Below, in pieces: positions 41,373 to 56,446 of a stretch of 64,000 nucleotides of DNA (the first letter of the stretch is position 1; each line of letters opens with the position of its first letter). The notes below the pieces were generated by a model that did not search any database, had not been told where the DNA came from, and saw nothing but the letters and a program-made list of their open reading frames with translations. A program made the translations under genes and the position numbers. This stretch comes from an uncultured Candidatus Saccharimonadales bacterium (lineage in GTDB: Bacteria; Patescibacteriota; Saccharimonadia; UBA4664), in contig CAYXSN010000007.1 in NCBI GenBank assembly GCA_964467655.1, positions 682 to 64,681 on the forward strand. Direction: 5' to 3'.

Positions 41373-41394
41373 ATTGCTCTTAACGCCTTTGATA

Positions 41395-43430: not shown

Positions 43431-43433
43431 AGC

Positions 43434-43775: not shown

Positions 43776-43893
43776 GACAAACCCCCGCTCCGTTCTTTTA
43801 AGTCACTATCTCACTACATATACAACAGACAGTTTACACATGGTAAATATTATTTCAAAGCATAAGCAAAATTCTTAATGTATAATCTGTAAC

Positions 43894-44325
43894 ATGTACA
43901 AGCGATTTCTGGAGAAGCTTCGGAGAACTGACCGCAAGAAGCGGGGCGTAGTTCTTGGCGCAGCAGGCCTGGCGGTGATTATAATTGTCCTGTTGCTAGC
44001 ACAGCTTGCCCGGCCTGAACGCTCAGTAGCCGCGTACTGCAAGGTCTACAAGCAGGAAAAGACCCGACTCAGCGCTATGTCCAGTAACTCCAACCCCTAC
44101 CCATCGGGTGTATTCGACGTAAGTGTCACTGACGCAGCACAGATCGCTACCTCGTTCGGCAAGCTCGACCCGGTCGCACCCAAAGAAGTTGAGCCAGAGG
44201 TAAACAGCCTTCAAAAGCTCTACCAGGACATGCACGATAACCCCTCGCACGCAATTAACAATGCCCTCAACGGCGCGTCACTGGATGATAACTTAAAGAC
44301 TTGGACTGAGGCACGATGCAAATGA
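43894..44325 (+). CDS. Hypothetical membrane-anchored protein (divergent from T4SS operon)
   Basis: 143 aa; basic N-terminus and one TM; TGTATAATC 7 nt upstream of ATG. Confidence 0.4.
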   Translation: MYKRFLEKLRRTDRKKRGVVLGAAGLAVIIIVLLLAQLARPERSVAAYCKVYKQEKTRLSAMSSNSNPYPSGVFDVSVTDAAQIATSFGKLDPVAPKEVEPEVNSLQKLYQDMHDNPSHAINNALNGASLDDNLKTWTEARCK

Positions 44326-45167
44326 ATGACGGTGGCCTAGACAGGGGTGGCATTAATGGCGATATTACTCCGCCTGAACCGGGGAAATTGGCAAAGGGAG
44401 GCCAATATGGGCTTGAGATTGCCGGTGGCCTAGTGCCTTTCGTCGGTGGGGTTCTCTCGGCAACTGCATCGGCTTGGTCGGGTAAAGACCAAGAGCACAT
44501 CAATGATTTTTTCACTCATTGGATACAAATGCTCCGTGACGAAATCCTAGAGAAAGAGCGAACGATTATCGAGATCGCACAACGACTGGACTTACAGGAT
44601 CAAAAAATCGTCGAGCGCATGGAGAGCAAAGCCTACCAATCTATTCTCAAGAAAGCGTTTCGAGAGTGGTCTGCTGCCGAAAGTGATAATAAACGGGAAT
44701 ATGTCCGGAACATATTAGCAAATGCAGCGGCAACGGCTATGGTTAGCGACGATGTTATTAAATTGTTCCTCGACTGGCTGAAGGTTTACTCAGAGTTCCA
44801 TTTTCAGGTTATCAGTGCCGTTTATAACGAAAATGGAATTACGCGCGGAGGTATATGGAAAAAGCTAGGTAGGGAATCTGTGAGGGAGGACTCTGCGGAC
44901 GCAGATCTGTACAAATTGCTAATTCGCGACCTGAGCACTGGGGGCATTATCAGGCAGCACGTTGAACGGGACTACTACGGTAATCCGATTCGGCGTGCTG
45001 CGGTCAGGAGACCTAAGGGTTCTGGGCCACAACCGCCTGTGTCGGCCTTTGACGATAAAGAGCCTTACGAGCTGACGGAGTTGGGCCAGCAATTTGTACA
45101 CTATGCTATGACCGATTTGCCCCTGCGCATAGAAGCGCCCAGTGAGCCCATGTCGGCAGAAGCCTAG
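44316..45167 (+). CDS. Hypothetical protein
   Basis: 283-aa ORF, no recognisable motif. Confidence 0.35.
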   Translation: MQMNDGGLDRGGINGDITPPEPGKLAKGGQYGLEIAGGLVPFVGGVLSATASAWSGKDQEHINDFFTHWIQMLRDEILEKERTIIEIAQRLDLQDQKIVERMESKAYQSILKKAFREWSAAESDNKREYVRNILANAAATAMVSDDVIKLFLDWLKVYSEFHFQVISAVYNENGITRGGIWKKLGRESVREDSADADLYKLLIRDLSTGGIIRQHVERDYYGNPIRRAAVRRPKGSGPQPPVSAFDDKEPYELTELGQQFVHYAMTDLPLRIEAPSEPMSAEA

Positions 45168-45170
45168 CCT

Positions 45171-46142
45171 ATGATTTTTCCGACATTGTTTAGCCCCCTA
45201 AAAACCATAACCTTACCCGATGGGCTGTGTGTCCGTCCGTTAAGCCGCGGCACCCTAAAAGAGAAACATAGCTCGTTGTATTTAGATGCGATTATGTTGG
45301 AGGGGTATGAGAAGACCGATGGTTCTATTAAGAGTTGGGTTATATTCCACACGTTTATCTTAAATAGCAAGCATACGGCAGAACAATATGAGTGGTCATA
45401 TGGCGGCGGCAGGGATTTCGATTTAACCGACGACAAGCTTGCGAATCAGGTGGATTACGATCATATTTTGCCGTGGGTGTACTTTCACGGCAACGAGGCC
45501 GTAATAGGCGAAAAGGACGACAGCTATGCTGAACTTTATCAGAAGTATAAGGTGTTGCCAGCCGAGAAAATAGGCGTCATTCGCAACTATCTAAACGACT
45601 TTGGCAAGGCGTCCAGGGCGCGTACTATCAATCGTTCAATCAGCGATCCGTCCTATTGGCAGATGATGGTTTACTACTCGATTATTGAGAACATACTGGG
45701 CAGACAGACATTTTGTGGCGAGCAACATCAATGCGAAAAATGCGGTACTGCCAATATCTGCCACTATCCTACGTCCCCATTCGAGTGGACGAAAAACAGG
45801 CTCATAGAAATTACTGGCAGCGACGAAATCGCTGAAGCATATAGAGCTGTCATATGGGCTTTTCGGCAGAAGATTCGTCATGATACGGTTCATAGCGCAT
45901 TGACTCCAAGTGCAAGGGAGGGCTTGCCGCAAGATGAAGACAGGGTGCTATTTGACTTGGAACGTTCAATAGGCAATTACAAAACAGACCATCATGCTGT
46001 AGAGTCGCTTACTTGTATGCTTGCCGATATTGCACGGTTTTTATTGCTAGATGATATATATCAACTAGGAATATTCCCGGAACCGCGGCCGCTGGGAGTC
46101 GTGACGTTAAGGCAACCAGGCGTGGCGGTACGTGGCATCTGA
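45171..46142 (+). CDS. Hypothetical protein with CxxC...CxxC zinc-ribbon-like motif
   Basis: 323 aa; CGEQHQCEKCGTANICHY. Confidence 0.35.
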   Translation: MIFPTLFSPLKTITLPDGLCVRPLSRGTLKEKHSSLYLDAIMLEGYEKTDGSIKSWVIFHTFILNSKHTAEQYEWSYGGGRDFDLTDDKLANQVDYDHILPWVYFHGNEAVIGEKDDSYAELYQKYKVLPAEKIGVIRNYLNDFGKASRARTINRSISDPSYWQMMVYYSIIENILGRQTFCGEQHQCEKCGTANICHYPTSPFEWTKNRLIEITGSDEIAEAYRAVIWAFRQKIRHDTVHSALTPSAREGLPQDEDRVLFDLERSIGNYKTDHHAVESLTCMLADIARFLLLDDIYQLGIFPEPRPLGVVTLRQPGVAVRGI

Positions 46143-46195
46143 TACGGCGAACCCCATAATGGTGTGCATTCATGTCGCAATGTCCTTGTCGAACG

Positions 46196-46744
46196 TCACG
46201 ACCCCTTATTGGCTAAAAAGCCTTCGAGTTTCTTCAGGCCAATTCTTCGAAGCGAATAGGTAATCTGCTCTTCTTCGTTCATCTCGCCCCAGGTCTTATC
46301 TTGTCCATCGGGAACAAAGATGCCATCCGTGCCATAGCCGTTATCGCCGCGCAGCTCATGGGCAATGGTACCCTTCATGATTCCATCAAAGATCTCCACG
46401 CCATTTTCGTCGCAATAACCAAAACACGTTTGCGCATAAGCCACGCGGGACGAGTAATGATTGAGCAACCGACATAGTCCTTGTACTTGCAGTTCCTGCA
46501 GAAACCACTTAATGAGCGGGCCGGGTAACCTCCCAAGCGCTTCAAAGCGAAGAGAAAAATCTTCAACTAGGACGGGTCTTTGTAGTATCCGATAGGCTTC
46601 TTCTGCCTTAATCTTAACGACATCATGCGGGTTAAGTGATTGGATTTCAGGTAAATCAAGTTTATGGTGCCTTACCGGATAACCGAGATGCCATGATATC
46701 TCCTCGGCCTTTTTGGCATGACTAGTAATAAATGTGATGTCCAT
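46196..46744 (-). CDS. rdgB: Non-canonical purine NTP pyrophosphatase (Ham1/RdgB/ITPase family)
   Basis: ITFITSHAKKAEE...GTDGIFVPDG...TWGEMNEEEQITYSLRRIGLKKL matches Ham1 family pattern. Confidence 0.65.
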   Translation of the reverse strand: MDITFITSHAKKAEEISWHLGYPVRHHKLDLPEIQSLNPHDVVKIKAEEAYRILQRPVLVEDFSLRFEALGRLPGPLIKWFLQELQVQGLCRLLNHYSSRVAYAQTCFGYCDENGVEIFDGIMKGTIAHELRGDNGYGTDGIFVPDGQDKTWGEMNEEEQITYSLRRIGLKKLEGFLANKGS

Positions 46745-46747
46745 GGA

Positions 46748-47464
46748 TTATACCTCCGGCTGGAATTTATTCCGGCTCCAGTTCCACAATGCCGGATGGA
46801 CTCGGGAAGGGTTAATACCACTACCGCGCAGAAGTTCTTTCCATGCGGACTCAACCTCAAGTGGGGTTGCGCCTACTGGTGTAATACCGAGATATGCACT
46901 GCACTGCAACACATGAGTGTCGGGGATAATAGAAATTTCCTGAGCATTTTTGAACATTACGTCAGTATAGAGCGACAAAATAAAAGGCCAGTAGTTGGAG
47001 AGCTTCGGGCCCGAAAGATAAGGAAACCGCTTTCGATGAGTCTTTTGTAAAAGCGTAATAAGTTGACCTGCGTCACTCTCGGCCTCTTTGATGATATTTC
47101 GTGGGTCATCCTCGTAATACTCATGGAGCGTTTGCGCAATGGTTGTCCATATCAAGGTGTGCTTATTTGGCTGTAGTGCAAGTTTGTGCGCAGTAAGATC
47201 ACGGCGAGCTTGCTCTGGTGACGTTTCGGCTAGACGTTCTGGGGAAAAGACGTACCGCGTTGCTTCGTCATTCCAGGTTGCCAGCGCGGCAGCCCACATA
47301 GCTGGTGAACTACGCTGAAAGTTAATGCAAACGGGGAGGGTGAAGTATAAGTAATTTTCGCGGCTGCCTTTTGGTAACCCTGGGTTAACTTCGTGTTGCG
47401 CGAGCGTAGGTATTAAGCCTTGTTCGTATAAGGCCAGTAGGCGCTTTACTTTGTCTAGTTGCAT
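46748..47464 (-). CDS. HhH-GPD superfamily DNA glycosylase-like protein
   Basis: YLSGPKLSNYWPF (HhH, LxGxGxKxAN-like) followed by IIPDTHVLQCSAYLG (cf. EndoIII VDTHVFRV catalytic Asp). Confidence 0.45.
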   Translation of the reverse strand: MQLDKVKRLLALYEQGLIPTLAQHEVNPGLPKGSRENYLYFTLPVCINFQRSSPAMWAAALATWNDEATRYVFSPERLAETSPEQARRDLTAHKLALQPNKHTLIWTTIAQTLHEYYEDDPRNIIKEAESDAGQLITLLQKTHRKRFPYLSGPKLSNYWPFILSLYTDVMFKNAQEISIIPDTHVLQCSAYLGITPVGATPLEVESAWKELLRGSGINPSRVHPALWNWSRNKFQPEV

Positions 47465-47599
47465 AGCTTTATTGTACCTTTCTTGGTGACTTCTGGTACA
47501 GTCAGGCGTCTTCTGGAAGATAGTGCCAAGGCGCCCTGACGATCACTGGCGAATGCGGTGTCGGGTGTGCTCGAAACGCGGCAACATTAAGCTTGTCGT

Positions 47600-48052
47600 C
47601 TATTGCAGCAAGAAATGGCTCTTGAAACTAAAATGTTCGTTGGTAGTAATGATTAGATGGTCTCGTAAGGTGACGCCCAAGATCTGGCCTGCCGCTGCGA
47701 GCTGCTGCGTTACGTCAATATCTGCTTTGCTTGGCTGAGGTGAGCCTGAGGGGTGGTTATGCGCAACTATGACCGCTGCCGCTCGGTCTGTTAGCGGCCC
47801 AGCAAACACTTCTCTCGGATGAATTAATGCGCTTTCGAGTGTGCCGATAGTCACTACTCGTCGCGCGATGAGCCTGTGACCACTGTCTAACGAAAGAGAA
47901 ATCACGTGCTCCTGCTTTTTGTCGCGGAAATGCTCAAGGTATTTCAGAATATCAGGAGTGGTGCGCACGGGCTTGCTAACTGGTGGTACATAGGGGTTCT
48001 GGCATACGGGGCACACCTGGTCATCCCTGCAAACCTTTAGGTTGTCAGCCAT
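47600..48052 (-). CDS. radC: RadC-like JAB/MPN-domain protein
   Basis: VIVAHNHPSGSPQPSKADIDVTQQL (JAMM H-x-H-x7-S-x2-D motif); N-terminal CxxC. Confidence 0.75.
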   Translation of the reverse strand: MADNLKVCRDDQVCPVCQNPYVPPVSKPVRTTPDILKYLEHFRDKKQEHVISLSLDSGHRLIARRVVTIGTLESALIHPREVFAGPLTDRAAAVIVAHNHPSGSPQPSKADIDVTQQLAAAGQILGVTLRDHLIITTNEHFSFKSHFLLQ

Positions 48053-48479
48053 AGATTACGATTAACCCATCGCTGGGCATCCAACTAGTTAAAAGATGTA
48101 GTTTTATGCGACTAAACTCGTAGGTGATATAAGCGGTCTGGCATATTGAGGATGTCGCCACGAAGTCGTCAGCTGTAGCAAACGTTATATCTGCCGAGAG
48201 CATATCTTCAGGCGGCTTTGCTGAAAACCGCACGCTCTGCATGTGCGATAGCTGGTCATGCATTTTATCCGTGTATTCGCGGTTTAGAGTTCTGGTGCAC
48301 TCAGTTTGGTACTGGTGCTCTAGCTTGAGCCACTGTTTTTTAACGGCGGCCATCATGCCGGGTGGGTTATCTGTTACGACAATGGCACCACCGCGCCGAT
48401 TGGCAAAGTGACGAGCAACATCCTTGGAAAGAGATTGGCCCGGAGCCACATGTCTCTGTTCAACCCTAAGCCCGTGCAT
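48045..48479 (-). CDS. Hypothetical protein (upstream of, and overlapping, radC-like gene)
   Basis: 144-aa ORF, 8-nt overlap with radC-like start. Confidence 0.35.
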   Translation of the reverse strand: MHGLRVEQRHVAPGQSLSKDVARHFANRRGGAIVVTDNPPGMMAAVKKQWLKLEHQYQTECTRTLNREYTDKMHDQLSHMQSVRFSAKPPEDMLSADITFATADDFVATSSICQTAYITYEFSRIKLHLLTSWMPSDGLIVIYG

Positions 48480-48852
48480 CGCCTACCTCAGTGGCTATGC
48501 TTTGGTTCCAAAAAATGAGCAAAATAAATACAGCCCGCACGGCTGCATATTGCCGGTTTGTCATAATTTCCTAGCTTGGATTTATACTTGTATCTGGACA
48601 CACAGAACCCGCCGCCAGCGGGTTTGCACCCCATGACCCTTTCGAGCCATGACCAAGCTAAGATGCTGAACGACGGGATCAGTACCTAGCTTGGCTTTTA
48701 GACCATGCCATTGCAAGCAATGGTTTAGGTCTTTGAATTGTCCGCCCTTTTGAATTGTGGGCTTATACCTAATATATGATACCGGCTTGATAATGACAAG
48801 CCCTAACATTTGTTAGTGGTTGCTAACTTATGTTAGTCCTACGCTTAATATA

Positions 48853-49077
48853 ATGACAAAACGAATCGACACGATTTACAAGGAAATCGGCAAGCGCATA
48901 TCAAGCGCTCGTGCTAAGCGTGGTTGGACGCAGGAAAAGTTGGCAGCCGAAAGTGAAGTCGCCAGTGCGCACATTGGCTTCATCGAACAGGGGCGCAGGC
49001 GGCCAACGGTCACGACCTTGCACAAATTAGCAACGGCACTCAATACAACTCTCGAAGAACTGTTTAAGGGGTTGTAG
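48853..49077 (+). CDS. XRE-family helix-turn-helix transcriptional regulator (apparently leaderless: TAATAT abuts ATG)
   Basis: RGWTQEKLAAESEVASAHIGFIEQGRRRPTVTTLHKLATAL; ATG 48853 inside 48820 ORF. Confidence 0.65.
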   Translation: MTKRIDTIYKEIGKRISSARAKRGWTQEKLAAESEVASAHIGFIEQGRRRPTVTTLHKLATALNTTLEELFKGL

Positions 49078-49079
49078 CC

Positions 49080-49730
49080 GTGACGCAAATATTTATCTTT
49101 GGCGCGAGTACGGCTTATGGTTCAGGTGCAGAACTAGCGGGGTGGGGTGATTTGCTGAAGCAGTCAATGCTCACAAAAATGTATGGCAAGGACGGCCCCG
49201 GCGAGAAATGCGAGGTCTACAACTTTGCCCAACACGGAGCAACCATTGAGTTTGTGCTTGTAGCCGCTCCCGAGCAGCTCAAATATTATCGGAAGTCCGG
49301 AAAAGTTGTCGCAGTAGTTCAGGTCGGTGGGAACAATATTAAAGCCAAGGGTACGCCTGACGGCTTTGTTGTCTCGCTTGAGGAATATGAGAACCTGATG
49401 TCGCAGCTCATTGAGCGGCTGCGTGTAGGTGTGGATGAACTTGTTATGCTTGATGCCCTAATGCCCGTTGACGAGAGCAAGACCAACCCAGAAATTGATA
49501 AGACCACCGGCCGTAAGTCGTATTTCACGAACGATAGGATATTTCTGTTCAATCACGCACTCGGTAAACTTTGTCGAAAGTATAAGGTACATCATATTGA
49601 CCTCACGACTGACCCAAAGGAATGGGTAAAAGACCGTGTTTCTGCGGATGGCCTGCATCCTAATCAAGCTGGCCATCGCTACATCTTCGATAAAGTGTCT
49701 CCCCAGATCGAAAAGTTACTAGAAAGCTAG
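49080..49730 (+). CDS. SGNH/GDSL hydrolase (esterase/lipase family)
   Basis: block I IFIFGASTAYGSG; block V DGLHPNQAGH. Confidence 0.65.
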   Translation: MTQIFIFGASTAYGSGAELAGWGDLLKQSMLTKMYGKDGPGEKCEVYNFAQHGATIEFVLVAAPEQLKYYRKSGKVVAVVQVGGNNIKAKGTPDGFVVSLEEYENLMSQLIERLRVGVDELVMLDALMPVDESKTNPEIDKTTGRKSYFTNDRIFLFNHALGKLCRKYKVHHIDLTTDPKEWVKDRVSADGLHPNQAGHRYIFDKVSPQIEKLLES

Positions 49731-49927
49731 TGCTTATTCTCGCTAAGCTCTTGCTGTAATTGCTCAAGAAGCTCGGGGTTGTTATGCGCCATACTGTGCA
49801 CGCCTGCGCGTAAATCTTCCAGCATAGCGATGGCGTTCTCTCGGGTTGCTTTTTCTGGTTCGTGAGTCTTTAGATAATGCATAACGCTTTCAATATCCTG
49901 CTCGCTGATTTCGTACGTGTCGCTCAT
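49727..49927 (-). CDS. Small acidic hypothetical protein
   Basis: 66-aa ORF downstream of PLD nuclease gene. Confidence 0.3.
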   Translation of the reverse strand: MSDTYEISEQDIESVMHYLKTHEPEKATRENAIAMLEDLRAGVHSMAHNNPELLEQLQQELSENKH

Positions 49928-49936
49928 GACCTCTCC

Positions 49937-50422
49937 TTATACTATGTGCTTGTAAAGTTTCGTAAATTGGATCATCTGTTGTGCGAGTGCCTTCGATTCG
50001 ACCCGGCGCATGATCTCGCAGCTATCGTTTTGCGAAAGGATATTGAGGCTCCCTTCAAACAAAATCTTCCTATCCAGTATAGCCAGCTTGCGATGATGTC
50101 CGCCAGTATAAAGAACCGTTGCGCCGAGATCAAACAGATTACCTAGCGTTTCGTACGCTTCGCCGCGCATATACTCATCTTCGTGCTCGTCGGGGTGCTT
50201 GGTGTTGACGACGATTTTGACACCGCGTGCCCGCAATTTACGCAAAGTTGGCATAAGCCTGGCTAGCCGACGTGAAGTGACGAACGGACTTTCGATTATG
50301 ACCTCTTTAGTGCAGCGCTCCAGATCGCGGATAAACCTCGGGTAGAAGGTATCTTGGTCAAGCAGGCTGGATGTAGGCAGCTCGGTAGGGGACGGGGCGG
50401 CAAAGTTAAAAGGCCTAAGCAT
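49937..50422 (-). CDS. Phospholipase-D-superfamily (HKD) nuclease, Nuc-like
   Basis: HKD motif HHRKLAILDRKILFEGSLN; start taken at ATG 50420-50422 (ORF opens at 50440); ATG overlaps stop of small ORF 50415..50555 (ATGCTTAG). Confidence 0.6.
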   Translation of the reverse strand: MLRPFNFAAPSPTELPTSSLLDQDTFYPRFIRDLERCTKEVIIESPFVTSRRLARLMPTLRKLRARGVKIVVNTKHPDEHEDEYMRGEAYETLGNLFDLGATVLYTGGHHRKLAILDRKILFEGSLNILSQNDSCEIMRRVESKALAQQMIQFTKLYKHIV

Positions 50423-50555
50423 CGCTCGCCTCCATGTCATTCAAATAAACAACTTCACCATTGATGAAAGCCAGCCCGAACCGTTCAAGTTTTGAGTGTA
50501 TCAACCGTAACTCAGCCTCAAAGTGGTTCCACCTACAATCCATTAGGCGCACCAT
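50415..50555 (-). CDS. 46-aa small protein, family member 1 (MVRLMDCRWNHFEAELRLIHSKLERFGLAFINGEVVYLNDMEASDA)
   Basis: four intact paralogs of identical 46-aa length in window; translationally coupled to PLD nuclease gene. Confidence 0.5.
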   Translation of the reverse strand: MVRLMDCRWNHFEAELRLIHSKLERFGLAFINGEVVYLNDMEASDA

Positions 50556-50642
50556 TTTAGAGTTACAGATAGAAAAGCGTTCCAGATCGGGCGCTTTTTT
50601 ATATTGAGACCGCATCGTAATCTGTTGCATTGGTTAGAGTCC
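50525..50642. repeat. Composite repeat unit U1: box1 (GGTTCCACCTAcAATCCAtTaGgCGCACCAT = start of small ORF, antisense) + terminator hairpin AAAAGCGTTCCAGATCGGGCGCTTTTTT (50573-50600) + box3 ATATTGAGACCGCATCGTAATCTGTTGCATTGGTTAGAGTCC
   Basis: near-identical to U2 (51482-51600) over ~75 bp; partial copies at 52415, 53476, 54355, 55367, 55539. Confidence 0.8.
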
Positions 50643-50682
50643 TTTATGGCTGAAAATCTCACTGGTTGATATACTTGTATTC

Positions 50683-51375
50683 ATGTTTAGATCTGTCGCC
50701 TTTTTTGATATCGACAACACCATGTATGACGGGTTTTCTTACTTTGCACTTTTAGAAAGGCAGGTTAGTGAGGGCCTAATAAAGCAGGAGACACTTACCG
50801 CTGCACTGGCGAGTATGCAAAAATATAAGGCCAAGACCCAGGATTATGAAACGACAATCGTTGAGATGCTCGATATTTATGCCGCAGGCTTAAAAGGCGC
50901 CGAACATACTACTGTCCTCGAATCAACGAGGCAGTTTTACGAAAAATCGGACAAATTCTTCGCCTATGTTAGCCCAACCATTAAAGAGCTAAAAGGCTCA
51001 CATGATATCGCCCTCGTGACTGGCGAACCCCAGTTTGTCGCCGAGGCGGTGAAGGATCTCTTCGGTGCGAACTCGTATCATTCTACTGAATATGAGGTTA
51101 TTGACGGGGTATTCACGGGCCGTATTAAGTCCTACCTTGCCTCGCGTCACGAAAAGCACGATGCCATCAAGCATCTCATGCAAGGTCATAGCGTCAAAAA
51201 TTCTTTTGCGTTTGGAGATTCTGAGGGAGATATAGAAATGCTGCGAGCAGTGGAATATCCTATATGTCTCAATGCCACTGACGGCTTACGTGCAATTGCC
51301 ACCGAGCAGGGCTGGAATATGCCCGACATTGACGCGGTGACCAAACTTGTCGCAAGTCTTACTAAGGCGGCCTAA
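50683..51375 (+). CDS. HAD-superfamily hydrolase (HAD-IB/SerB-like phosphatase)
   Basis: motif I FFDIDNT; motif IV FGDSEGDIEML. Confidence 0.7.
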   Translation: MFRSVAFFDIDNTMYDGFSYFALLERQVSEGLIKQETLTAALASMQKYKAKTQDYETTIVEMLDIYAAGLKGAEHTTVLESTRQFYEKSDKFFAYVSPTIKELKGSHDIALVTGEPQFVAEAVKDLFGANSYHSTEYEVIDGVFTGRIKSYLASRHEKHDAIKHLMQGHSVKNSFAFGDSEGDIEMLRAVEYPICLNATDGLRAIATEQGWNMPDIDAVTKLVASLTKAA

Positions 51376-51512
51376 AACTCATTGTCGTACTCTTGACCTG
51401 AGTCGAGTACAATCCGACCGCCGATATTTATTAAGCCAAATAGGACCAATTTTTCATACATCAGGATGCTTATCTCGATGTGGTTCCACCTATAATCCAG
51501 TTGCCGCACCAT
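51372..51512 (-). CDS. 46-aa small protein, family member 2 (MVRQLDYRWNHIEISILMYEKLVLFGLINIGGRIVLDSGQEYDNEF)
   Basis: hand translation; below ORF-track length cutoff; shares N-terminal MVRxxDxRWNH with paralogs. Confidence 0.45.
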   Translation of the reverse strand: MVRQLDYRWNHIEISILMYEKLVLFGLINIGGRIVLDSGQEYDNEF

Positions 51513-51600
51513 TTTCAGAATTACAGATAGGAAGGCGTTCCAGGTCGGGCGCTTTTTTATATTGAGACCGCATCGTAATCTGTTGCATCGGTTAGAGTCC
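51482..51600. repeat. Composite repeat unit U2 (box1 + terminator hairpin 51532-51557 + box3)
   Basis: see U1. Confidence 0.8.
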
Positions 51601-51652
51601 TTTCTGTTTGATGGCCAAGCTCGTTGTGTAACTCTTATGATAAAATGTCAGT

Positions 51653-52300
51653 ATGCAGCTCGCGCGACGCTTTAGAAATTTGAGTAATCGCTATCCATTC
51701 GCTGGGCCACTTATGTGGCTGCTGACGTTTCAGTTCTTCATTGCGGAGATTGTGACTGCGAACAGTTGGGCCAAGTTGCCCTACAGTTATCGATTGAACG
51801 CCATTAGCGATCTGGGCGCAGTTGGATGCGGTCTATTCGATGACGACCGTTTCGTGTGCTCGCCACTTCATGGAATTATGAATGGCTCGTTGATCCTACT
51901 GGGCATCACGATGGCCGTAGGATCGGTGCTCCTGTACACACGCTTACAAAAGAGTAAGGTTGGGTTTAGCCTGATGACATTAGCAGGCATTGGCGCATTC
52001 TTGGTTGGAATATTCCCCGAGGACACGGTCTTTTGGGTGCACATCGTAGGTCAAGACCTGGCGTTCGTATTCGGGAACGTTGCTTTGATAGTTTTTGGTT
52101 TTACACTGCCGGCACCGCGCGTATTTCGTTGGTATAGCATTACATCGGGAACAGTAGCACTCGTAGCACTCGTATTATTTTTATCGCATCATCGCCTCTT
52201 CTTGGAACTTGGCGGTATGGAGCGAACCGTAGCCTATCCGCTCCTCCTTTGGCTGATAGTAGCGGGTGGATATTTTGCAACAAGACGAGTTCGTAACTGA
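51653..52300 (+). CDS. Polytopic membrane protein, DUF998-like
   Basis: 215 aa, ~6 TM; N-terminal ...LNAISDLGAV motif. Confidence 0.4.
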   Translation: MQLARRFRNLSNRYPFAGPLMWLLTFQFFIAEIVTANSWAKLPYSYRLNAISDLGAVGCGLFDDDRFVCSPLHGIMNGSLILLGITMAVGSVLLYTRLQKSKVGFSLMTLAGIGAFLVGIFPEDTVFWVHIVGQDLAFVFGNVALIVFGFTLPAPRVFRWYSITSGTVALVALVLFLSHHRLFLELGGMERTVAYPLLLWLIVAGGYFATRRVRN

Positions 52301-52304: not shown

Positions 52305-52445
52305 CTAAGCATCGCCTTCCTCAACTTCGCAAAGATAAACGACCTCTCCACTCATGAAAACTAGCCCTAATTGTTCAAGCTTTGACTGTATCAACCGCAG
52401 GCCAGACTCTAGGTGGTTCCACCTATAATCCACTTGCTGCACCAT
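52305..52445 (-). CDS. 46-aa small protein, family member 3 (MVQQVDYRWNHLESGLRLIQSKLEQLGLVFMSGEVVYLCEVEEGDA); ORF track extends it to 52487 with an alternative start
   Basis: paralog; same length and same terminal GATGCTTAG as member 1. Confidence 0.5.
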   Translation of the reverse strand: MVQQVDYRWNHLESGLRLIQSKLEQLGLVFMSGEVVYLCEVEEGDA

Positions 52446-52500
52446 AAACGAAATCACCGTTTTTAATGAACCCGTTATAGGGTTCATTTAGTTTATAAGA
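52415..52500. repeat. Partial repeat unit U3: box1 (52415-52445) followed by two hairpins (AAACG-n7-CGTTTTT; AATGAACCC-gttata-GGGTTCATT) instead of box3
   Basis: seen directly. Confidence 0.6.
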
Positions 52501-52579
52501 CACTTTTGAAACAGGTTTCTTCTACTCTCAGCAAGACGGTAGTTACCTGTATAATGAGGGTAACCTATGGGGTACCTTC

Positions 52580-53317
52580 TTGAAAAACAATAGCTACTAC
52601 AAAGTCACGCAACTTGACACCGATTTGTGGGCTTTTGAAGATGTAAAAAGTAGCGAGGACTCAATAAGCTATCTTTTGTGTGGCAAAAACAAAGCATTAG
52701 TGTTTGATACGGGGCTTGGCTTAAGCCCCGTATTGCCGCTAATTAAAGAAATAACTGAATTACCGCTCATAGCTTGTCTGTCACACTGGCACTTTGACCA
52801 TTCAGGAGGGGCACATGAGTTTGATGAGGTGATTGGCTGGCATTCACAACAGATGAAAAATACTAGTGAGAACGGCGTTAGCTTAGATGTCATTAAAGCT
52901 AACGTTAGCACTACCTTTTGGAAAAGTATTGGAAGAGGTAATTATCAAACAAAAGGTTTCCCACTTCAGATGATTAGCCAGGAACAAACACTAGACTTAG
53001 GAGGTTTTGAACTTAAAGTTTTACATACGCCTGGCCATACTTCTGACTCTATTTGTCTATATGAAGGACAGAAGAAGTGGTTATTCGCAGGTGATAGCGC
53101 ATACCCTGGTCCAATATATTTGCATTTTGCTGATTCTGATACTAATACGTACCAGGATTCTTTAACAAAGCTTGCGAAGCTTGATGTCGAAAGTATTTTC
53201 CCAGGCCATAACTCTCTGAAAACATCAAAAGACTTGCTGGTTGAGTTAGATAAAATGCTAACTAACCCCTCCTACAAGTCACAACTTTTCCCTGAACTGA
53301 GTATTCGAAAGTCTTAG
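52580..53317 (+). CDS. MBL-fold metallo-hydrolase
   Basis: HWHFDHSGG (HxHxDH), downstream H and D ligands. Confidence 0.7.
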   Translation: MKNNSYYKVTQLDTDLWAFEDVKSSEDSISYLLCGKNKALVFDTGLGLSPVLPLIKEITELPLIACLSHWHFDHSGGAHEFDEVIGWHSQQMKNTSENGVSLDVIKANVSTTFWKSIGRGNYQTKGFPLQMISQEQTLDLGGFELKVLHTPGHTSDSICLYEGQKKWLFAGDSAYPGPIYLHFADSDTNTYQDSLTKLAKLDVESIFPGHNSLKTSKDLLVELDKMLTNPSYKSQLFPELSIRKS

Positions 53318-53475
53318 ATCACCTGGATGGGGCTTTATTTTTGATCTAGTGTGAGTCCCGTCCCTTACCTACTAAGTAAATAATTCCGATAAGGGACTTT
53401 CAGTATTTTCCTCCAACGGGCTATTTCATCCCTGATGGGGTGTAAACTTTTTTGGAGCTGCTGTACCAGTTTAGT

Positions 53476-53556
53476 TTTACAGATAAGTGGATGTTCCAGA
53501 TGAGGCGTCTATTCACGTTGAGCTCGACATATAATCTGCTACCTTGGTTAGGCCCT
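53476..53556. repeat. Partial diverged repeat unit U3b (hairpin region + box3-like ...ATAATCTGCTACCTTGGTTAGGCCC) lacking box1
   Basis: alignable to U1 50563-50645 at ~65% identity. Confidence 0.5.
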
Positions 53557-53619
53557 TTCTGTGCGCCGAGCTGCGATTTTAGCTTGACATAGTAAGTACA
53601 CGTAAGTACAATTAAAGTT

Positions 53620-53871
53620 ATGGTACGAGCAATAGTCACGAAATCAGGGAATTCATATGCGCTTCGAGTGCCGAAGCGATATATTGACGACAATAAACTA
53701 CGGCTAGGCGATGTGGTAACTCTTGAGGAGCCACTTACGCTGCAGAGGAATGCTCTGGAAGCGCTCGTGAGGCAGGGGAAAACACACGGAGCGATTAGCG
53801 GAATTGCTGACCCGGTGAAATGGCAACGCCAGCAGCGGCAATCAAGCGACCCCTGGGAAGAACTAAAGTGA
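53620..53871 (+). CDS. AbrB/MazE/SpoVT-fold antitoxin
   Basis: MVRAIVTKSGNSYALRVPKRYIDDNKLRLGDVV swapped-hairpin pattern. Confidence 0.6.
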   Translation: MVRAIVTKSGNSYALRVPKRYIDDNKLRLGDVVTLEEPLTLQRNALEALVRQGKTHGAISGIADPVKWQRQQRQSSDPWEELK

Positions 53872-54239
53872 TTTTGCTAGATAGCAATATAGTAATCTAT
53901 CTCCGTGACCCGCAATGGGGGGAGAAGATTTTCAATCAAATTGATGGAGAAAGACTAGCAACCTGTAACGTAATAATTTCAGAAGTCCTGGGCTTTAAGG
54001 GGCTACCAAAAGCTGACGCTGATCATTTCGAGCGCTTTTTTGTAACCATGAAAAACTTTCAGTTTGATGAGGCGGTTACAAAGATGGTGATAGAGCTTAG
54101 GAGAAGGTATGTAATCCAATTGCCCGATGCAATTATTGCAGCTTCAGCTCTAGTAAACGATCTCACACTTTATACTCATAATGCAGAAGATTTCGAAAAG
54201 ATTTCAGATCTGCTACTCTTTGATCCGCTTGCACCATAG
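53868..54239 (+). CDS. vapC: PIN-domain toxin (VapC-like)
   Basis: GTG start overlapping antitoxin stop (GTGA); VILLDSNIVIYL (first acidic residue), further conserved D/E positions. Confidence 0.6.
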   Translation: MILLDSNIVIYLRDPQWGEKIFNQIDGERLATCNVIISEVLGFKGLPKADADHFERFFVTMKNFQFDEAVTKMVIELRRRYVIQLPDAIIAASALVNDLTLYTHNAEDFEKISDLLLFDPLAP

Positions 54240-54244
54240 AGACT

Positions 54245-54385
54245 CTACTTGAGGCAGCCGAACGGGTACTCGACATACACGTGACTACCATTTATACAGG
54301 CGATCCCGAATCGCTCAAGCTTAGAGTGTACTAGCCGTAATCCAACCTCAAGGAGGTTCCACCTATAATCCACTTGCTGCACCAT
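54245..54385 (-). CDS. 46-aa small protein, family member 4 (MVQQVDYRWNLLEVGLRLVHSKLERFGIACINGSHVYVEYPFGCLK)
   Basis: hand translation; below ORF-track cutoff. Confidence 0.45.
   Translation of the reverse strand: MVQQVDYRWNLLEVGLRLVHSKLERFGIACINGSHVYVEYPFGCLK
54355..54385. repeat. Repeat box1 copy U4 (GGTTCCACCTATAATCCACTTGCTGCACCAT)
   Basis: identical to U3 box1 over 31 nt. Confidence 0.7.
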
Positions 54386-54402
54386 TCTGAAATAACAGGT
54401 AT

Positions 54403-54430
54403 GACACATCGAATAATGTGTCTTTTGTTT
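54403..54430 (+). terminator. Intrinsic terminator (GACACAT-cgaata-ATGTGTC followed by TTTTGTTT)
   Basis: seen directly. Confidence 0.55.
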
Positions 54431-54538
54431 CTCGAGACTACTACATCTACCTCTGTACCGCTGAGTGTAAGTCTCATTTGCTTAAAATGCTCTGCGTACG
54501 CTACGATTAAGTTGAATTATTCATAATCGCGCGCGGGG

Positions 54539-55249
54539 ATGCCTATGAGAAAGACCGATCAGGCAGGCTTCAGCATCATTGAAGCATTACTTATCTTAGT
54601 GGTTGTTGGCATCTTAGGTTTCACAGGTTGGTCTGTATACCATTCTCGAACGGTTACTAACAAAGATTACAGTTCATCAGCTTATACGCAGACCACGTCG
54701 CCTGATCTATATAAGGGTTGGAAATCCGCTAGCCTTAAGTATGAAAAAATGAGTTTTAAATACCCAAACACATGGCAAATCAGCGACACCTCTCAAGATG
54801 AGGTAGGGACGGGCGGTACTGCAACGCCAGGCGCTGATGACGTTACGCTGACAAGCCCTACTGGTCTTTACGTGAGCATTATGTCGGGCCAGGCAGGCGT
54901 TGACACCAACGGCTCGCTGATAGGCTTATCAACCTCGCGACCCATCAACACGCTTGGTGGTAGTTATTTCCTCGTTTATTACACACATAAGGCTCAGAGT
55001 ACTACCGAAGCACGGGGGGCTTGCATTAATAAGACTGCAAGCTCTACGGGTGGCCCGTCGATAGCCAGTAAAAATATCCAACTGGCAGGCATAGCAAGCG
55101 GTGCTGCTATATCTGCAGCTAATCTAATTTGTATTGGCTACCCAGCGCCAAACAGCACATCCCCCGTGCCAGTGAAGCCTGTGTCGGCGTTTGAGCAGGA
55201 CGCGTCATACAACGACGCCAAACTCATTCTTGAGTCACTTACGTATTAG
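54539..55249 (+). CDS. Type IV pilin-like protein (prepilin-type N-terminal cleavage/methylation signal)
   Basis: MPMRKTDQAG/FSIIEALLILVVVGILGF: Gly-Phe cleavage site, Glu+5, hydrophobic helix; Thr/Ser-rich globular part. Confidence 0.55.
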   Translation: MPMRKTDQAGFSIIEALLILVVVGILGFTGWSVYHSRTVTNKDYSSSAYTQTTSPDLYKGWKSASLKYEKMSFKYPNTWQISDTSQDEVGTGGTATPGADDVTLTSPTGLYVSIMSGQAGVDTNGSLIGLSTSRPINTLGGSYFLVYYTHKAQSTTEARGACINKTASSTGGPSIASKNIQLAGIASGAAISAANLICIGYPAPNSTSPVPVKPVSAFEQDASYNDAKLILESLTY

Positions 55250-55290
55250 TTTAGATAGTATAAATGTAACTCCCTACACTTACTTAGAAG

Positions 55291-55571
55291 CTAAATGCTC
55301 TCGATAGGGCTCATCCAATATTTCTCTCCATCGAGCCAGTTCAACAGTAATAGAATGTAAACATTTTCCCACTTGCAGCACCAGGAATAATCTACAGATA
55401 AGAAAGCGCACCAGAACGGGCGCTTTTTGGTTCTGTACTGTAATCTGTTGCAGTGGTTAGGGTGCTTACCGGATCTTAAATCGTAAGTAAAGCCTAGTTT
55501 GTCGAGTTTTGCGTACATACGCATCAGACTTGCCACAAACTGATTCCACCTAAGATCCACCTCGCGCACCA
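55291..55571 (-). CDS. Small-protein family member 5, extended (MVREVDLRWNQFVASLMRMYAKLDKLGF...) reading through repeat U5; ORF track opens it at 55707
   Basis: N-terminus matches family; lacks the usual stop after ~46 codons, so possibly a degenerate copy. Confidence 0.3.
55367..55464. repeat. Repeat unit U5 (truncated box1 CCCACTTGCAGCACCA + hairpin 55401-55427 + box3-like GTAATCTGTTGCAGTGGTTAGGGTGC)
   Basis: seen directly. Confidence 0.6.
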
Positions 55572-55614
55572 TTATATTGTTCGTAACCTTCAACCGGTTG
55601 CATTGGTCAGCGCC
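55539..55614. repeat. Repeat unit U6 (box1-like GATTCCACCTAAGATCCACCTCGCGCACCAT + box3-like GGTTGCATTGGTCAGCGCC, no hairpin)
   Basis: seen directly. Confidence 0.5.
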
Positions 55615-55672
55615 CCTTGCGCGCGCAAAACTCACCACACAGAAAGCCAAAGTATCTTGGTAAACTAGTTGT

Positions 55673-56446
55673 ATGAGACAAAACGATAGCAAGCAGCGGG
55701 GCGCCATAACGAGTGTGCTCTACTATTTCTGCACATTACTTGTCATAATGATCCCGTTTTGGGTATTGGGATCAGTTACACGTATTCACGGCCTGCCATT
55801 CAACATGCAATTGAATGTGTTGTTGGTACTCGTTATGCCGGTAGTTGCGCTCTACTTTATTGCCCGTACGTATGGTACATCGTCACTCAGACGGGTTGCC
55901 ATCGATTGTCTGCCGGGCCATCGCGCCAGTAATCTTGCGCTAGCGATTGCGTTTCTGACGGTGCCAGCTGTGGCAATGCTTGTGTTCTCTGCGGCTCATT
56001 TCTTTGTGGCGTTTGACGGCTGGCCGGTCGCATTCGTACTGGTACCGGCATATTTCATCGTTTACTACTTTGCTGCAGCGTTCGAAGAGATAGGTTGGAC
56101 TTGGTACGCTACGCCGATCTTGGGCAGGAAAATGAGCGTTGTTGGTACGGGCGTCACCGTCGGTGTAGTCTGGGCTGCTCTGCATACATTGCCATGGTAT
56201 CAGCAGAACGGCTGGTGGTTTATGACTGGGATGATCATCTTTTCCGTACTAAGCCGCATTATCATGACCTGGGTATATCTGTGTAACGGCAGACTGCTTT
56301 GGTTAAGCATCGCTTATCACGCTATGATCAATACGACATTCACACTGTTTCACCCAGGTAGCCCGTATGCTAATCCGTTCTTGTATGCAATAGCTCTTAC
56401 GCCATTGGTAATTTGGATCTTGTATCGTGCTAATTCCCATGATTAA
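55673..56446 (+). CDS. CPBP-family (CAAX protease/Abi) intramembrane metalloprotease
   Basis: multi-TM; motif 1 AAFEEIGW; motif 2 AALHT; motif 3 AYHAMIN. Confidence 0.6.
   Translation: MRQNDSKQRGAITSVLYYFCTLLVIMIPFWVLGSVTRIHGLPFNMQLNVLLVLVMPVVALYFIARTYGTSSLRRVAIDCLPGHRASNLALAIAFLTVPAVAMLVFSAAHFFVAFDGWPVAFVLVPAYFIVYYFAAAFEEIGWTWYATPILGRKMSVVGTGVTVGVVWAALHTLPWYQQNGWWFMTGMIIFSVLSRIIMTWVYLCNGRLLWLSIAYHAMINTTFTLFHPGSPYANPFLYAIALTPLVIWILYRANSHD

What the first reader, a model, noticed from the sequence alone, without database searches (positions are those of the whole stretch)
52415..55464. Repeat units appear split around inserted genes (box1 on one side, hairpin+box3 on the other)
Unit U3 keeps only box1 (52415-52445). 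The matching hairpin/box3 half, diverged, reappears at 53476-53556. The MBL hydrolase gene (52580-53317) lies between them. Likewise box1 U4 (54355-54385) and the box1-truncated U5 (55367-55464) flank the pilin-like gene (54539-55249). This is the pattern expected if genes insert by site-specific recombination within the unit, between the start-codon box and the upstream box. Alternatively, tandem units may have recombined with each other.
Basis: inference. Interest (0 to 1): 0.6.

Follow-up and report, generated by a model that had tools for sequence, protein, structure and literature searches.

The report
Gene cassette array at tRNA-Gly
The "split repeat units" are junctions left by site-specific recombination at a 6-base core copied from the 3' end of a glycine tRNA gene, which has stacked single-gene cassettes next to a large mobile element in a probable Saccharibacteria genome.

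Summary
The insertion reading is supported and can now be stated more precisely.

- **What the unit is.** Each "unit" is a composite junction. Box1 is the conserved end of a mobile segment and also the start of a 46-aa minus-strand ORF. It ends in GCACCA, which matches the last six bases of tRNA-Gly. The hairpin plus box3 is the native trailer (terminator) of tRNA-Gly(GCC).
- **The recombinase.** The window holds that tRNA at 26647-26722. A large serine recombinase gene abuts it, at the left end of a ~23.8 kb element carrying type IV secretion genes. That element ends at unit A.
- **The split units.** The MBL and pilin-like genes sit in ~1 kb segments with their own arms. All arm types meet at GCACCA.
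- **Strain comparison.** Strains 99.1-99.5% identical lose homology to the window exactly at core C, where tRNA-Gly(TCC) replaces the DUF998 cassette. Three such contigs carry an intact box1-plus-trailer unit at core D, without the pilin-like cassette.
- **Wider sample.** Sixty metagenome loci show 67 box1 arms that diverge right after GCACCA.

The closest analogues are SCC tandem cassettes and tRNA-anchored islands. I rate it a new variant of a known kind.

The parts
26647..26722 (+). tRNA-Gly(GCC). Its last bases CGCACCA (26716-26722) are the recombination core. This is the left junction (tRNA arm | element arm) of the large element.
   Evidence: ARAGORN and Rfam; sequence; core alignment
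26700..28433 (-). Large serine recombinase, 577 aa. Its stop codon lies inside the 3' end of the tRNA.
   Evidence: Pfam Resolvase + Recombinase + Zn_ribbon_recom; PHROG 95 integrase, E=2.8e-40; translation
26723..50554 (.). Integrated element of ~23.8 kb. It holds the recombinase, Replic_Relax (29417-30274), T4 coupling protein (35640-38555), CHAP hydrolase, VirB4 (39094-40830), TrbL, TrbC, RadC, LOOT RNA, PLD/HKD protein and sORF1-A.
   Evidence: Pfam; gene table of L007, which is the window sequence; junction types at both ends
49937..50422 (-). PLD/HKD-family protein. Its start overlaps the stop of sORF1-A. It forms the conserved right-end module of recombinase-bearing relatives.
   Evidence: Pfam PLDc_2; tblastn map of relatives
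50415..50555 (-). sORF1-A, 46 aa. Box1 (50522-50554) is its first 11 codons and is the element arm 'P'. Core at 50548-50554.
   Evidence: codon-position entropy 1.29/0.85/1.65 over codons 12-27 of 59 copies
50555..50645 (+). Copy of the tRNA-Gly trailer (arm B'): TTACAGATA, terminator hairpin 50572-50599, box3 50618-50645.
   Evidence: The same sequence directly follows tRNA-Gly(GCC) in 9 loci (7 distinct sequences). Hairpin has 14 pairs, 7 with compensatory changes.
50683..51375 (+). HAD hydrolase cargo gene.
   Evidence: Pfam HAD
51372..51603 (.). Junction B: sORF1-B (51372-51512, minus strand), core 51505-51511, trailer copy from 51512.
51653..52300 (+). DUF998 membrane protein cargo gene.
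   Evidence: Pfam DUF998
Core TGCACCA at 52438-52444.
   Evidence: Homology with strains L083-L090 starts at 52439.
52445..53468 (.). MBL cassette (~1.0 kb). Own right arm with terminator hairpin (52465-52488), MBL gene 52580-53317 (+), sORF2-C2 53365-53469 (-), core TGTACCA at 53462-53468.
   Evidence: The same cassette has three different left neighbours.
53469..53567 (+). Diverged tRNA-Gly trailer copy (hairpin and box3).
   Evidence: 61% identity to unit A; aligned
53620..54239 (+). AbrB/MazE-like antitoxin (53620-53871) and PIN toxin (about 53868-54239) cargo. A promoter-like TTGACA-17-TACAAT lies at 53584-53612.
   Evidence: Pfam; promoter scan, 11 of 12 matches
Core TGCACCA at 54378-54384.
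   Evidence: In L085/L086/L088 this arm is followed by a trailer start instead.
54385..55383 (.). Pilin-like cassette (~1.0 kb). Own right arm with terminator hairpin (54403-54422), ORF 54539-55249 (+), sORF2-D2 55280-55384 (-), core AGCACCA at 55377-55383.
55384..55464 (+). tRNA-Gly trailer copy (hairpin 55401-55428, box3 55441-55464).
55465..55620 (.). Junction E: sORF1-E start (minus strand, ATG at 55570-55572), core 55565-55571, then a degenerate trailer without a hairpin (box3-like 55592-55620).
55673..56446 (+). CPBP/Rce1-like protease, the first gene beyond the array.
   Evidence: Pfam

Best explanation
The region 50.4-55.6 kb is an array of small mobile gene cassettes, built by site-specific recombination at a 6-bp core, GCACCA. 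That core is the 3' end of tRNA-Gly genes (acceptor end plus encoded CCA).

**Shown**
- The hairpin plus box3 is the native trailer and terminator of tRNA-Gly(GCC), called B' here.
- Box1 is the conserved end (arm P) of mobile segments, and also the start of a 46-aa ORF (sORF1).
- A second arm type, X, starts a 34-aa ORF (sORF2).
- Junctions of every combination exist. The combinations are tRNA|B' (empty site, in relatives), tRNA|element arm (window 26722), P|B' (units A and B), P|element arm (U3 and U4) and X|B' (53468 and 55383).
- Closely related strains differ by whole cassettes, with breakpoints exactly at the core.

**Inferred**
- The enzyme is the large serine recombinase at 26700-28433. 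It integrated a ~23.8 kb conjugative-type element into tRNA-Gly(GCC) and pushed an older cassette array rightwards.
- Recombinase-less cassettes are moved in trans or carried along with the large element.
- Cassettes of the type B'-gene-P restore a tRNA|B' site when they insert at the tRNA, so insertions can repeat.
- The MBL and pilin-like cassettes have the form element arm-gene-X. They give the 'split unit' appearance either by inserting into a P|B' junction, or because a later P-type cassette landed next to them at the tRNA.
For: **Core alignment.** Eight window junctions and seven from relatives align on the core. The arms swap on either side of it.

**Trailer identity.** tRNA-Gly(GCC) is followed directly by TTACAGATA-hairpin-ATCTGTTGCA..GGTTAGAGTCC in L006, L022 (a diverged copy), L029, L031, L063, L066, L071, L072 and L074.

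**Unbiased test.** Thirty-two trailer copies were found with a pattern that did not include the core. All are preceded by GCACCA, attached to at least four unrelated left arms: tRNA, P, X and a 'GTGTTCGAAAC' type.

**Wider sample.** Sixty-seven P arms in 60 metagenome loci diverge immediately after GCACCA.

**Sharp breakpoints in near-identical pairs**
- L046/L048: 100% identical over 4.8 kb up to core +1.
- L023/L055: 96% identical.
- L028/L065: 93% identical.
- L051/L070: 95% identical.
- L039/L063: an identical trailer sits behind a tRNA in one and behind a P-like arm in the other.

**The cassettes in question**
- L083-L090 are 99.1-99.5% identical to window 52439-54514.
- They carry tRNA-Gly(TCC) ending at the core in place of sORF1-C and DUF998.
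- L085, L086 and L088 have a trailer start after core D.
- L082 has the MBL cassette at 96% identity behind an X arm.

**Recombinase next to the site**
- Window.
- L040 has the same layout: tRNA-Gly, a recombinase at 68% identity, then PLD, sORF1 and P, over 9.1 kb.
- L046, L048 and L069 have a recombinase beside the P end.
- No other recombinase appeared among the ORFs scanned.

**Terminators.** Every right arm starts with a hairpin and T-run. The hairpins are more stable on the + strand RNA. The trailer hairpin covaries.
Against: - No recombination assay and no read-level evidence of circles or empty sites is available. The link between enzyme and site rests on adjacency only.
- A test for the imperfect dyad symmetry expected of serine-integrase attP sites was inconclusive.
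- Classical serine integrases do not recombine hybrid (attL/attR-type) sites without a directionality factor. Several of the inferred steps would need this.
- Many relatives have cassettes at tRNA-Gly with no recombinase on the contig.
- The trailer after core D in L085 is not identical to the trailer at 55384. The strains therefore differ by more than a simple presence or absence of the pilin cassette.
- The window may come from a metagenome assembly. Short-read contigs break at these repeats.
Confidence: 0.8

Rival explanations
1. Homologous (RecA-type) unequal crossing-over or gene conversion among diverged tandem repeats shuffled the units. No dedicated site or enzyme is involved.
For: The repeats are long enough. 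sORF1 plus box1 is 142 nt at 65-75% identity, and the trailers of A and B are 91% identical. Such recombination probably does delete or duplicate cassettes once an array exists.
Against: The partners at the breakpoints share only 6-10 nt. A tRNA arm, a P arm and an X arm each join the same right arm. Breakpoints in more than six independent pairs fall in the same 6 bp. New arms (X arms and element right arms) cannot arise from unit-by-unit exchange.
Confidence: 0.07
2. The half-units are full units that decayed independently. Nothing was inserted.
For: Junction E does look like a trailer that lost its hairpin by deletion. The trailer at 53469-53567 is strongly diverged at 61% identity.
Against: - To the right of U3 and U4 there are well-formed, different terminator hairpins and no residual similarity.
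- To the left of C2 and D2 there is a different ORF. Its two copies differ mostly at synonymous sites and share the stop position. It recurs in L021, L026, L059 and L082.
- The strain variants contradict decay.
Confidence: 0.02
3. An integron-like system: a tyrosine integrase elsewhere in the genome recombines folded single-stranded attC-like sites, and the hairpin is the attC stem.
For: The array consists of short, mostly one-gene cassettes separated by a ~100-nt repeat that contains a hairpin. Cargo is diverse.
Against: - The crossover lies outside the hairpin, about 17 nt to its left.
- The hairpin is followed by a T-run, covaries like a terminator, and is the trailer of a tRNA gene.
- The core equals a tRNA 3' end.
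- Cassette genes lie in both orientations in relatives.
- At least one cassette has a strong promoter-like site of its own.
- No tyrosine recombinase was found among the scanned ORFs, whereas a serine recombinase sits on the site.
Confidence: 0.03
4. Site-specific recombination at GCACCA is real, but another enzyme carries it out, not the serine recombinase at 26700-28433. The candidates are a different recombinase encoded elsewhere, or the PLD/HKD protein together with sORF1.
For: - Many arrays in relatives have no recombinase on the contig.
- The sORF1-PLD pair is the constant right-end module.
- The hybrid-site reactions required are atypical for serine integrases.
Against: The recombinase gene physically overlaps the site in the window and in L040. 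It is beside the P end in L046, L048 and L069. This is the usual arrangement for an integrase and its attP.
Confidence: 0.12

Closest known systems
Staphylococcal cassette chromosome (SCC/SCCmec) composite islands with tandem cassettes moved by CcrAB/CcrC
   Same: - Large serine recombinases do the work.
- The attachment site is at the 3' end of a conserved housekeeping gene.
- Several elements stack in tandem, separated by short repeated att cores.
- Neighbours without a recombinase are excised singly or in groups by the recombinase of one member (PMC11470126).
   Different: - The target here is a tRNA gene end (GCACCA), not rlmH.
- Cassettes are ~0.7-1 kb and mostly hold one gene, against 17-26 kb for the tandem cassettes in that study.
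- Cassettes have stereotyped arms that encode small ORFs.
- Many cassettes carry a copy of the target's downstream trailer.
- The recombinase is only distantly related. The NCBIfam CcrB model scores 27 bits against a cutoff of 900.
- The host is a probable Saccharibacteria.
tRNA-anchored genomic islands built by repeated integration (tycheposons of Prochlorococcus)
   Same: - Site-specific integrases, tyrosine or large serine, target tRNA genes.
- New arrivals push older ones further into the island.
- Partial tRNA copies mark old junctions (10.1101/2020.12.28.424599).
   Different: - The repeated core here is only the last 6-10 nt of the tRNA.
- Junctions are marked by conserved element arms and by copies of the tRNA trailer, not by long partial tRNAs.
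- The units are single-gene cassettes without replication or integrase modules.
Accretion and cis-mobilisation of integrative elements (ICE with CIME/IME, e.g. ICESt1/ICESt3 of Streptococcus thermophilus)
   Same: A conjugative element sits next to recombinase-less elements bounded by the same att sites. Alternative att pairs could excise composites. This comparison is from general knowledge; the reviews PMC5704250 and PMC5812530 were listed but not read.
   Different: Those systems use tyrosine integrases and elements of several kb. Here there is a serine recombinase and ~1 kb cassettes.
Integron gene-cassette arrays
   Same: The outcome is functionally similar: a chromosomal array of small, mostly one-gene cassettes with diverse cargo, separated by a repeated recombination site.
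   Different: There is no IntI tyrosine recombinase and no attC palindrome spanning the crossover. At least some cassettes appear to bring their own promoter-like sites, and each brings a terminator hairpin. The anchor is a tRNA gene.

Membership tests
Large serine recombinase integrative element | Recombinase with an N-terminal resolvase catalytic domain plus Recombinase and zinc-ribbon domains | tested here: met
   PF00239, PF07508 and PF13408 all score above their cutoffs. PHROG 95 'integrase', E=2.8e-40. An AVRVSTIGQ motif is visible in the translation.
Large serine recombinase integrative element | The element is bounded by two hybrid junctions that share a short core, and an empty target site exists in relatives | tested here: met
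   tRNA|element arm at 26722 and P|trailer at 50554 share CGCACCA. The empty site, tRNA-Gly followed by the trailer, occurs in 9 loci (7 distinct sequences). L040 has the same layout.
Large serine recombinase integrative element | attP and attB of about 40-50 bp with imperfect dyad symmetry around a 2-bp crossover | tested here: inconclusive
   The crossover is confined to the 6-bp GCACCA. The symmetry test gave only 15 of ~39 matches. The apparent motif is part of a terminator hairpin.
Large serine recombinase integrative element | The recombinase catalyses integration and excision at these sites | not testable with these tools
   This needs an assay or read-level junction data.
Integrative and conjugative element (ICE) | Mating-pair formation genes and a coupling protein lie inside the element | tested here: met
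   VirB4 (DUF87/AAA_10), TraC-like, TrbL, TrbC and T4SS pilin. TraG-D_C/T4SS-DNA_transf coupling protein and a CHAP hydrolase.
Integrative and conjugative element (ICE) | A relaxase and an origin of transfer | tested here: inconclusive
   Only a Replic_Relax (PF13814) protein, E=9e-9, plus a weak PHROG 'replication initiation by nicking' hit. No oriT was sought.
Integron | An IntI-type tyrosine recombinase with an adjacent attI and Pc promoter | tested here: not met
   No tyrosine recombinase domain was found in about 48 window ORFs scanned with Pfam. Not every ORF was scanned.
Integron | attC sites: an imperfect palindrome whose two ends carry the crossover | tested here: not met
   The crossover (GCACCA) lies outside and to the left of the hairpin. 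The hairpin is a tRNA terminator.
SCC-type cassette chromosome | Ccr-family recombinase and an rlmH 3'-end attachment site | tested here: not met
   The CcrB model scores 27 bits against a cutoff of 900. The target is tRNA-Gly. The window works like an SCC island but is not a member of the family.
tRNA-targeting island (tycheposon-like) | Integration into a tRNA gene with repeated tRNA-derived sequence at each junction | tested here: met
   The core is the tRNA-Gly 3' end at all junctions. Longer tRNA 3' fragments occur in L005 and L012.
tRNA-targeting island (tycheposon-like) | Hallmark replication modules and homology to tycheposon integrases | not tested
   No comparison with tycheposon proteins was made.

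The most novel reading that the evidence does not exclude
Saccharibacteria may carry an integron-like gene-capture platform driven by a large serine recombinase and anchored on tRNA-Gly genes (GCC and TCC isoacceptors).

- One-gene cassettes carry a copy of the tRNA trailer, so each insertion rebuilds the target site and allows unlimited stacking.
- The recombinase gene itself spans attP. In the excised circle its reading frame runs on into sORF1 (...DVSF|MVRLMDCRWN...). Integration therefore removes a 46-aa C-terminal tail and re-expresses it separately, coupled to the PLD protein.
- That would be a built-in switch of recombination direction.
- The type IV secretion cluster, regarded as a chromosomal feature of Patescibacteria, would here be part of this mobile element.
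Probability: 0.25. Interest if true: 0.85.

Novelty: new variant of a known kind. Interest (0 to 1): 0.62.

Why it matters
Saccharibacteria and other ultra-small episymbiotic bacteria have tiny genomes, and how they gain accessory genes is poorly understood.

- **A concrete mechanism.** The finding points to a testable route: a defined 6-bp crossover at the end of tRNA-Gly genes, a candidate recombinase, and a population of ~1 kb cassettes.
- **The cargo.** Cassettes carry hydrolases, deaminases, NUDIX/HD enzymes, toxin-antitoxin pairs and surface proteins.
- **It is active.** Cassette content differs between strains that are 99% identical.
- **It is widespread.** The conserved arm was found in 60 loci from JGI metagenomes.
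- **The secretion cluster.** At least one Patescibacteria type IV secretion cluster lies inside a recombinase-bounded element. A recent survey treated these clusters as chromosomal and mostly relaxase-less (PMC12102498).
- **Possible tools.** A serine integrase with a short natural target and compact cassettes could interest genome engineers.

Tried and rejected
- **First context look-ups.** Look-ups for the DUF998 and CPBP proteins returned only fragments 100% identical to the window, which end at the repeats.
- **Species-representative genome scan.** A hairpin-plus-box3 pattern gave only two hits, both in Bacteroidetes genomes.
- **Database matches for the units.** Rfam has no family for the units. 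Pfam and PHROGs have nothing for sORF1 or sORF2.
- **My first idea.** I initially read the hairpin and box3 as a 5' leader or attenuator of sORF1. I dropped this once the sequence proved to be the trailer of tRNA-Gly and folded better on the + strand.
- **Dyad symmetry.** An apparent symmetry motif in the reconstructed attP turned out to be part of a terminator hairpin.
- **tRNA-Phe arrays.** A search for analogous repeats of the tRNA-Phe 3' end in relatives with a gap between tRNA-Phe and tRNA-Gly found none.
- **Full-length fusions.** A profile search over 1.84 billion representatives found no full-length recombinase-sORF1 fusion protein among the 150 hits listed. It found only C-terminal fragments.
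- **Viral contigs.** The viral contig scan gave one hit, which I did not analyse further.
- **Unoccupied C junction.** No strain was found with DUF998-P|trailer-AbrB.

Full report
**1. The observation**

Box1 occurs 5 times against 0.66 expected, and box3 occurs 4 times against 0.01 expected. Gapless repeat finding gives five families:
- two full units: A (50414-50653) and B (about 51372-51611);
- two box1-only pieces: C (52304-52445) and D (54244-54385);
- two hairpin-plus-box3 pieces: C2 (53469-53567) and D2 (55393-55464);
- a seventh copy, E (55532-55620), with box1 and box3 but no hairpin.

The MBL gene (52580-53317) lies between C and C2. The pilin-like ORF (54539-55249) lies between D and D2.

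**2. What box1 is**

On the minus strand, box1 reads ATGGTGC... and opens a 46-aa ORF, sORF1, with consensus MVRxVDYRWNH...KL..FG. It is present in five copies.

In copy A its stop overlaps the start of a PLD/HKD-family gene at 49937-50422.

To the left of C2 and D2 there is a different 34-aa ORF, sORF2. Its two copies differ mostly at synonymous sites and stop at the same position. Relatives occur in L021, L026, L059 and L082.

Over 59 distinct sORF1 copies from metagenomes, codons 12-27 lie outside the search pattern. They show entropy 1.29/0.85/1.65 at codon positions 1/2/3, which is a coding signature. A profile search finds 216 cluster representatives, nearly all 34-115 aa. No Pfam or PHROG family matches either ORF.

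**3. What the hairpin and box3 are**

A distant sORF1 homologue led to contig L006. There a genuine tRNA-Gly(GCC) ends ...GACCCGCACCA. It is followed at once by TTACAGATA, the hairpin, and ATCTGTTGCA..GGTTAGG.

The same arrangement holds in L022 (a diverged copy), L029, L031, L063, L066, L071, L072 and L074. The hairpin plus box3 is therefore the native trailer of tRNA-Gly(GCC) in this lineage, called B' below.

The hairpin has 14 pairs, 7 of them with compensatory double changes across 24 copies. It is followed by a T-run. It folds better as + strand RNA than as minus strand RNA: -18.2 against -10.1 kcal/mol in unit A. It behaves as the tRNA's terminator.

**4. The core**

All junctions were aligned on the bases before the point of divergence. 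This gives CGCACCA (tRNA-Gly at 26716-26722, and A, B, E), TGCACCA (C, D), TGTACCA (C2) and AGCACCA (D2).

- Left arms are of three kinds in the window: the tRNA 3' end, arm P (box1/sORF1) and arm X (sORF2).
- Right arms are either B' or element-specific arms, each starting with its own terminator hairpin.
- All combinations occur in the window or in relatives (the empty tRNA|B' site only in relatives).

A pattern for B' that did not include the core found 32 copies. All have GCACCA 8-9 nt upstream, attached to at least four unrelated left arms. That test is free of selection bias.

**5. The recombinase and the large element**

In the window, tRNA-Gly(GCC) (26647-26722) is followed by an element arm, not by B'. 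A 577-aa large serine recombinase gene (26700-28433, minus strand) ends inside the tRNA.

Between this junction and unit A lie the following:
- a Replic_Relax protein;
- a type IV coupling protein, a CHAP hydrolase, VirB4, TraC-like, TrbL and TrbC;
- RadC and a LOOT RNA;
- the PLD gene and sORF1-A.

I read 26723-50554 as one integrated, conjugative-type element of ~23.8 kb. Unit A is its right junction (P|B').

L040 repeats the layout on a 9.1 kb scale, with a recombinase at 68% identity. L046, L048 and L069 have a 44%-identical recombinase beside the PLD-sORF1-P end. No other recombinase appeared among about 48 window ORFs scanned.

**6. Evidence that the core is a live crossover**

A scan of JGI metagenomes with the box1 pattern gave 60 loci and 67 P arms. 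Sequence to the right of GCACCA differs between unrelated loci from the first base.

All-against-all comparison found near-identical pairs whose homology stops at the core:
- L046/L048: 100% identical over 4,834 nt, ending at core +1;
- L023/L055: 96% identical;
- L028/L065: 93% identical;
- L051/L070: 95% identical;
- L039/L063: a 98%-identical cassette sits behind tRNA-Gly in one and behind a P-like arm in the other.

**7. The two cassettes in the finding**

The 90% cluster of the MBL protein has members on other contigs.

*Core C.* Contigs L083-L090 are 99.1-99.5% identical to the window from 52439 onward. Position 52439 lies inside core C. To its left they carry a tRNA-Gly(TCC) gene that ends exactly at the core. 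They lack sORF1-C and the DUF998 cassette.

*Core D.* L085, L086 and L088 continue with TTTTAGAATTACAGATAAAAAGAC, which is the start of a B' trailer. That is an intact box1-plus-trailer unit with no pilin-like cassette. L090 continues as the window does.

*A third neighbour.* L082 holds the MBL cassette at 96% identity behind an X arm, with an IS3-family transposase after the MBL stop.

The MBL cassette thus has three different left neighbours, always joined at GCACCA.

One caution applies. The B' after core D in L085 differs from the B' at 55384. These strains therefore differ by more than one simple insertion.

**8. How the array probably formed**

Two routes give the same structure.
- (a) A circle carrying X|element arm inserts into an existing P|B' junction.
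- (b) Every insertion happens at the tRNA, and older material is pushed away from it.

Under route (b), a cassette of the form B'-gene-P rebuilds a tRNA|B' site, so insertions can repeat. A cassette of the form element arm-gene-X leaves tRNA|element arm, and the next P-type arrival then creates P|element arm.

Reading the window from right to left under route (b) gives seven events, the last being the large element. The strain data fit route (b) in one respect: the MBL block lies directly at a tRNA-Gly in L083-L090. They also show that blocks move between the GCC and TCC tRNA-Gly loci, which share ...ACCCGCACCA.

The steps that need hybrid sites to recombine are atypical for serine integrases and remain inferred.

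**9. Comparison with known systems**

The closest mechanistic analogue is the SCC island of staphylococci. There, Ccr serine recombinases act at the 3' end of rlmH and excise tandem, recombinase-less neighbours singly or together (PMC11470126).

tRNA-anchored islands built by repeated integration, with new arrivals pushing older ones along, are described for Prochlorococcus tycheposons (10.1101/2020.12.28.424599).

The array differs from integrons in three respects. The crossover lies outside the hairpin, the hairpin is a terminator, and no IntI was found.

What is new here:
- the host group;
- the ~1 kb one-gene scale;
- stereotyped arms that encode small ORFs;
- cassettes that carry a copy of the target's trailer.

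Searches of the paper library for Saccharibacteria or Patescibacteria combined with serine recombinase, ICE, gene cassettes or tRNA found no description of this. A survey of Patescibacteria type IV secretion systems does not mention integrases or tRNA sites.

**10. Limits**

Everything is comparative sequence evidence.
- The enzyme assignment rests on adjacency.
- The window may be a metagenome contig. Junction C is independently assembled. L003 spans from core D to beyond E. L085 spans from C to D.
- The functions of sORF1, sORF2 and the PLD protein are unknown.
- The Saccharibacteria assignment is itself inferred. It rests on one named PLD homologue, and on the type IV secretion gene layout and the LOOT RNA, which I read as typical of the group from general knowledge.

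Noticed in passing
window 26700-28433 and 50415-50555: If the large element is circularised at the core, the recombinase reading frame runs straight into sORF1 (...KKDTPNPDVSF|MVRLMDCRWNHF...). Integration would then replace a 46-aa C-terminal tail by VQGL-stop. P0166 (locus L081) and P0260 are recombinase C-terminal fragments fused in frame to sORF1. The element arm at U3 also encodes ...VISF before the core.
   Followed up: partly
window 26723-50554: The type IV secretion gene cluster (VirB4, TrbL, TrbC, coupling protein) lies inside a segment bounded by a serine-recombinase junction at tRNA-Gly and a matching right junction, and includes a Replic_Relax protein. A recent survey describes Patescibacteria T4SS as chromosomal and mostly without relaxase (PMC12102498).
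   Followed up: partly
window 48620-48731 (-): A LOOT RNA (Rfam RF03000, 76.6 bits against a gathering score of 46.4) sits inside the large element, between the gene upstream of RadC and the GDSL lipase gene.
   Followed up: no
L077 7852-16738 (also L078, L079): A 58%-identical MBL homologue is the first gene of a run of ~13 + strand genes that begins right after a tRNA-Lys(CTT) gene. Copies or near-copies of that tRNA's 3' end (GGCCCTCCA, then GCCCCTCCA), each followed by a terminator hairpin, recur in two of the first three intergenic spacers downstream. This looks like the same architecture on a different tRNA, without sORF1.
   Followed up: partly
window 50632-50642 and 51590-51600; tRNA at 26698-26708: Box3 contains the 11-mer GGTTAGAGTCC, identical to the T-arm of tRNA-Gly(GCC). 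It is part of the native trailer in relatives. Whether it is a relic of an older partial-tRNA junction or a functional site is unexplained.
   Followed up: no
L072 1307-1370, L063 4386-4450: The trailer of tRNA-Phe in relatives begins GAAATTATTACAGATA followed by a hairpin, like the tRNA-Gly trailer. This start may therefore be a general tRNA-trailer motif in the lineage. No tRNA-Phe end repeats were found downstream.
   Followed up: yes
L082 1075-2400: An IS3-family transposase (rve, HTH_Tnp_1) follows immediately after the MBL stop codon and interrupts that cassette's sORF2 arm.
   Followed up: no
L072 7475-8039, L063 10832-11502, L006 3369-4144, L074 1886-2703: In many relatives the cargo gene (dCMP/cytidine deaminase, isochorismatase) lies downstream of sORF1 on the same strand, and in at least two the two ORFs overlap, as PLD does in the large element. 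In the window's cassettes the cargo is convergent with sORF1.
   Followed up: partly
L076 1-14111: A contig from the viral collection has a P arm 126 nt from its end, followed by 14 kb that has only a weak coupling-protein match. It may be another large element joined at the same core.
   Followed up: no
L005 10140-10290 and L012 12790-12820 (flipped coordinates): Relatives carry longer tRNA-Gly 3' fragments (GGTTAGAGTCCCGTAACCCGCACCA and GTGGAGAGTCCCGCCACCCGCACCA) at junctions downstream of the sORF1 arm. In L012 an EF-G-like GTPase gene lies between the two cores.
   Followed up: no
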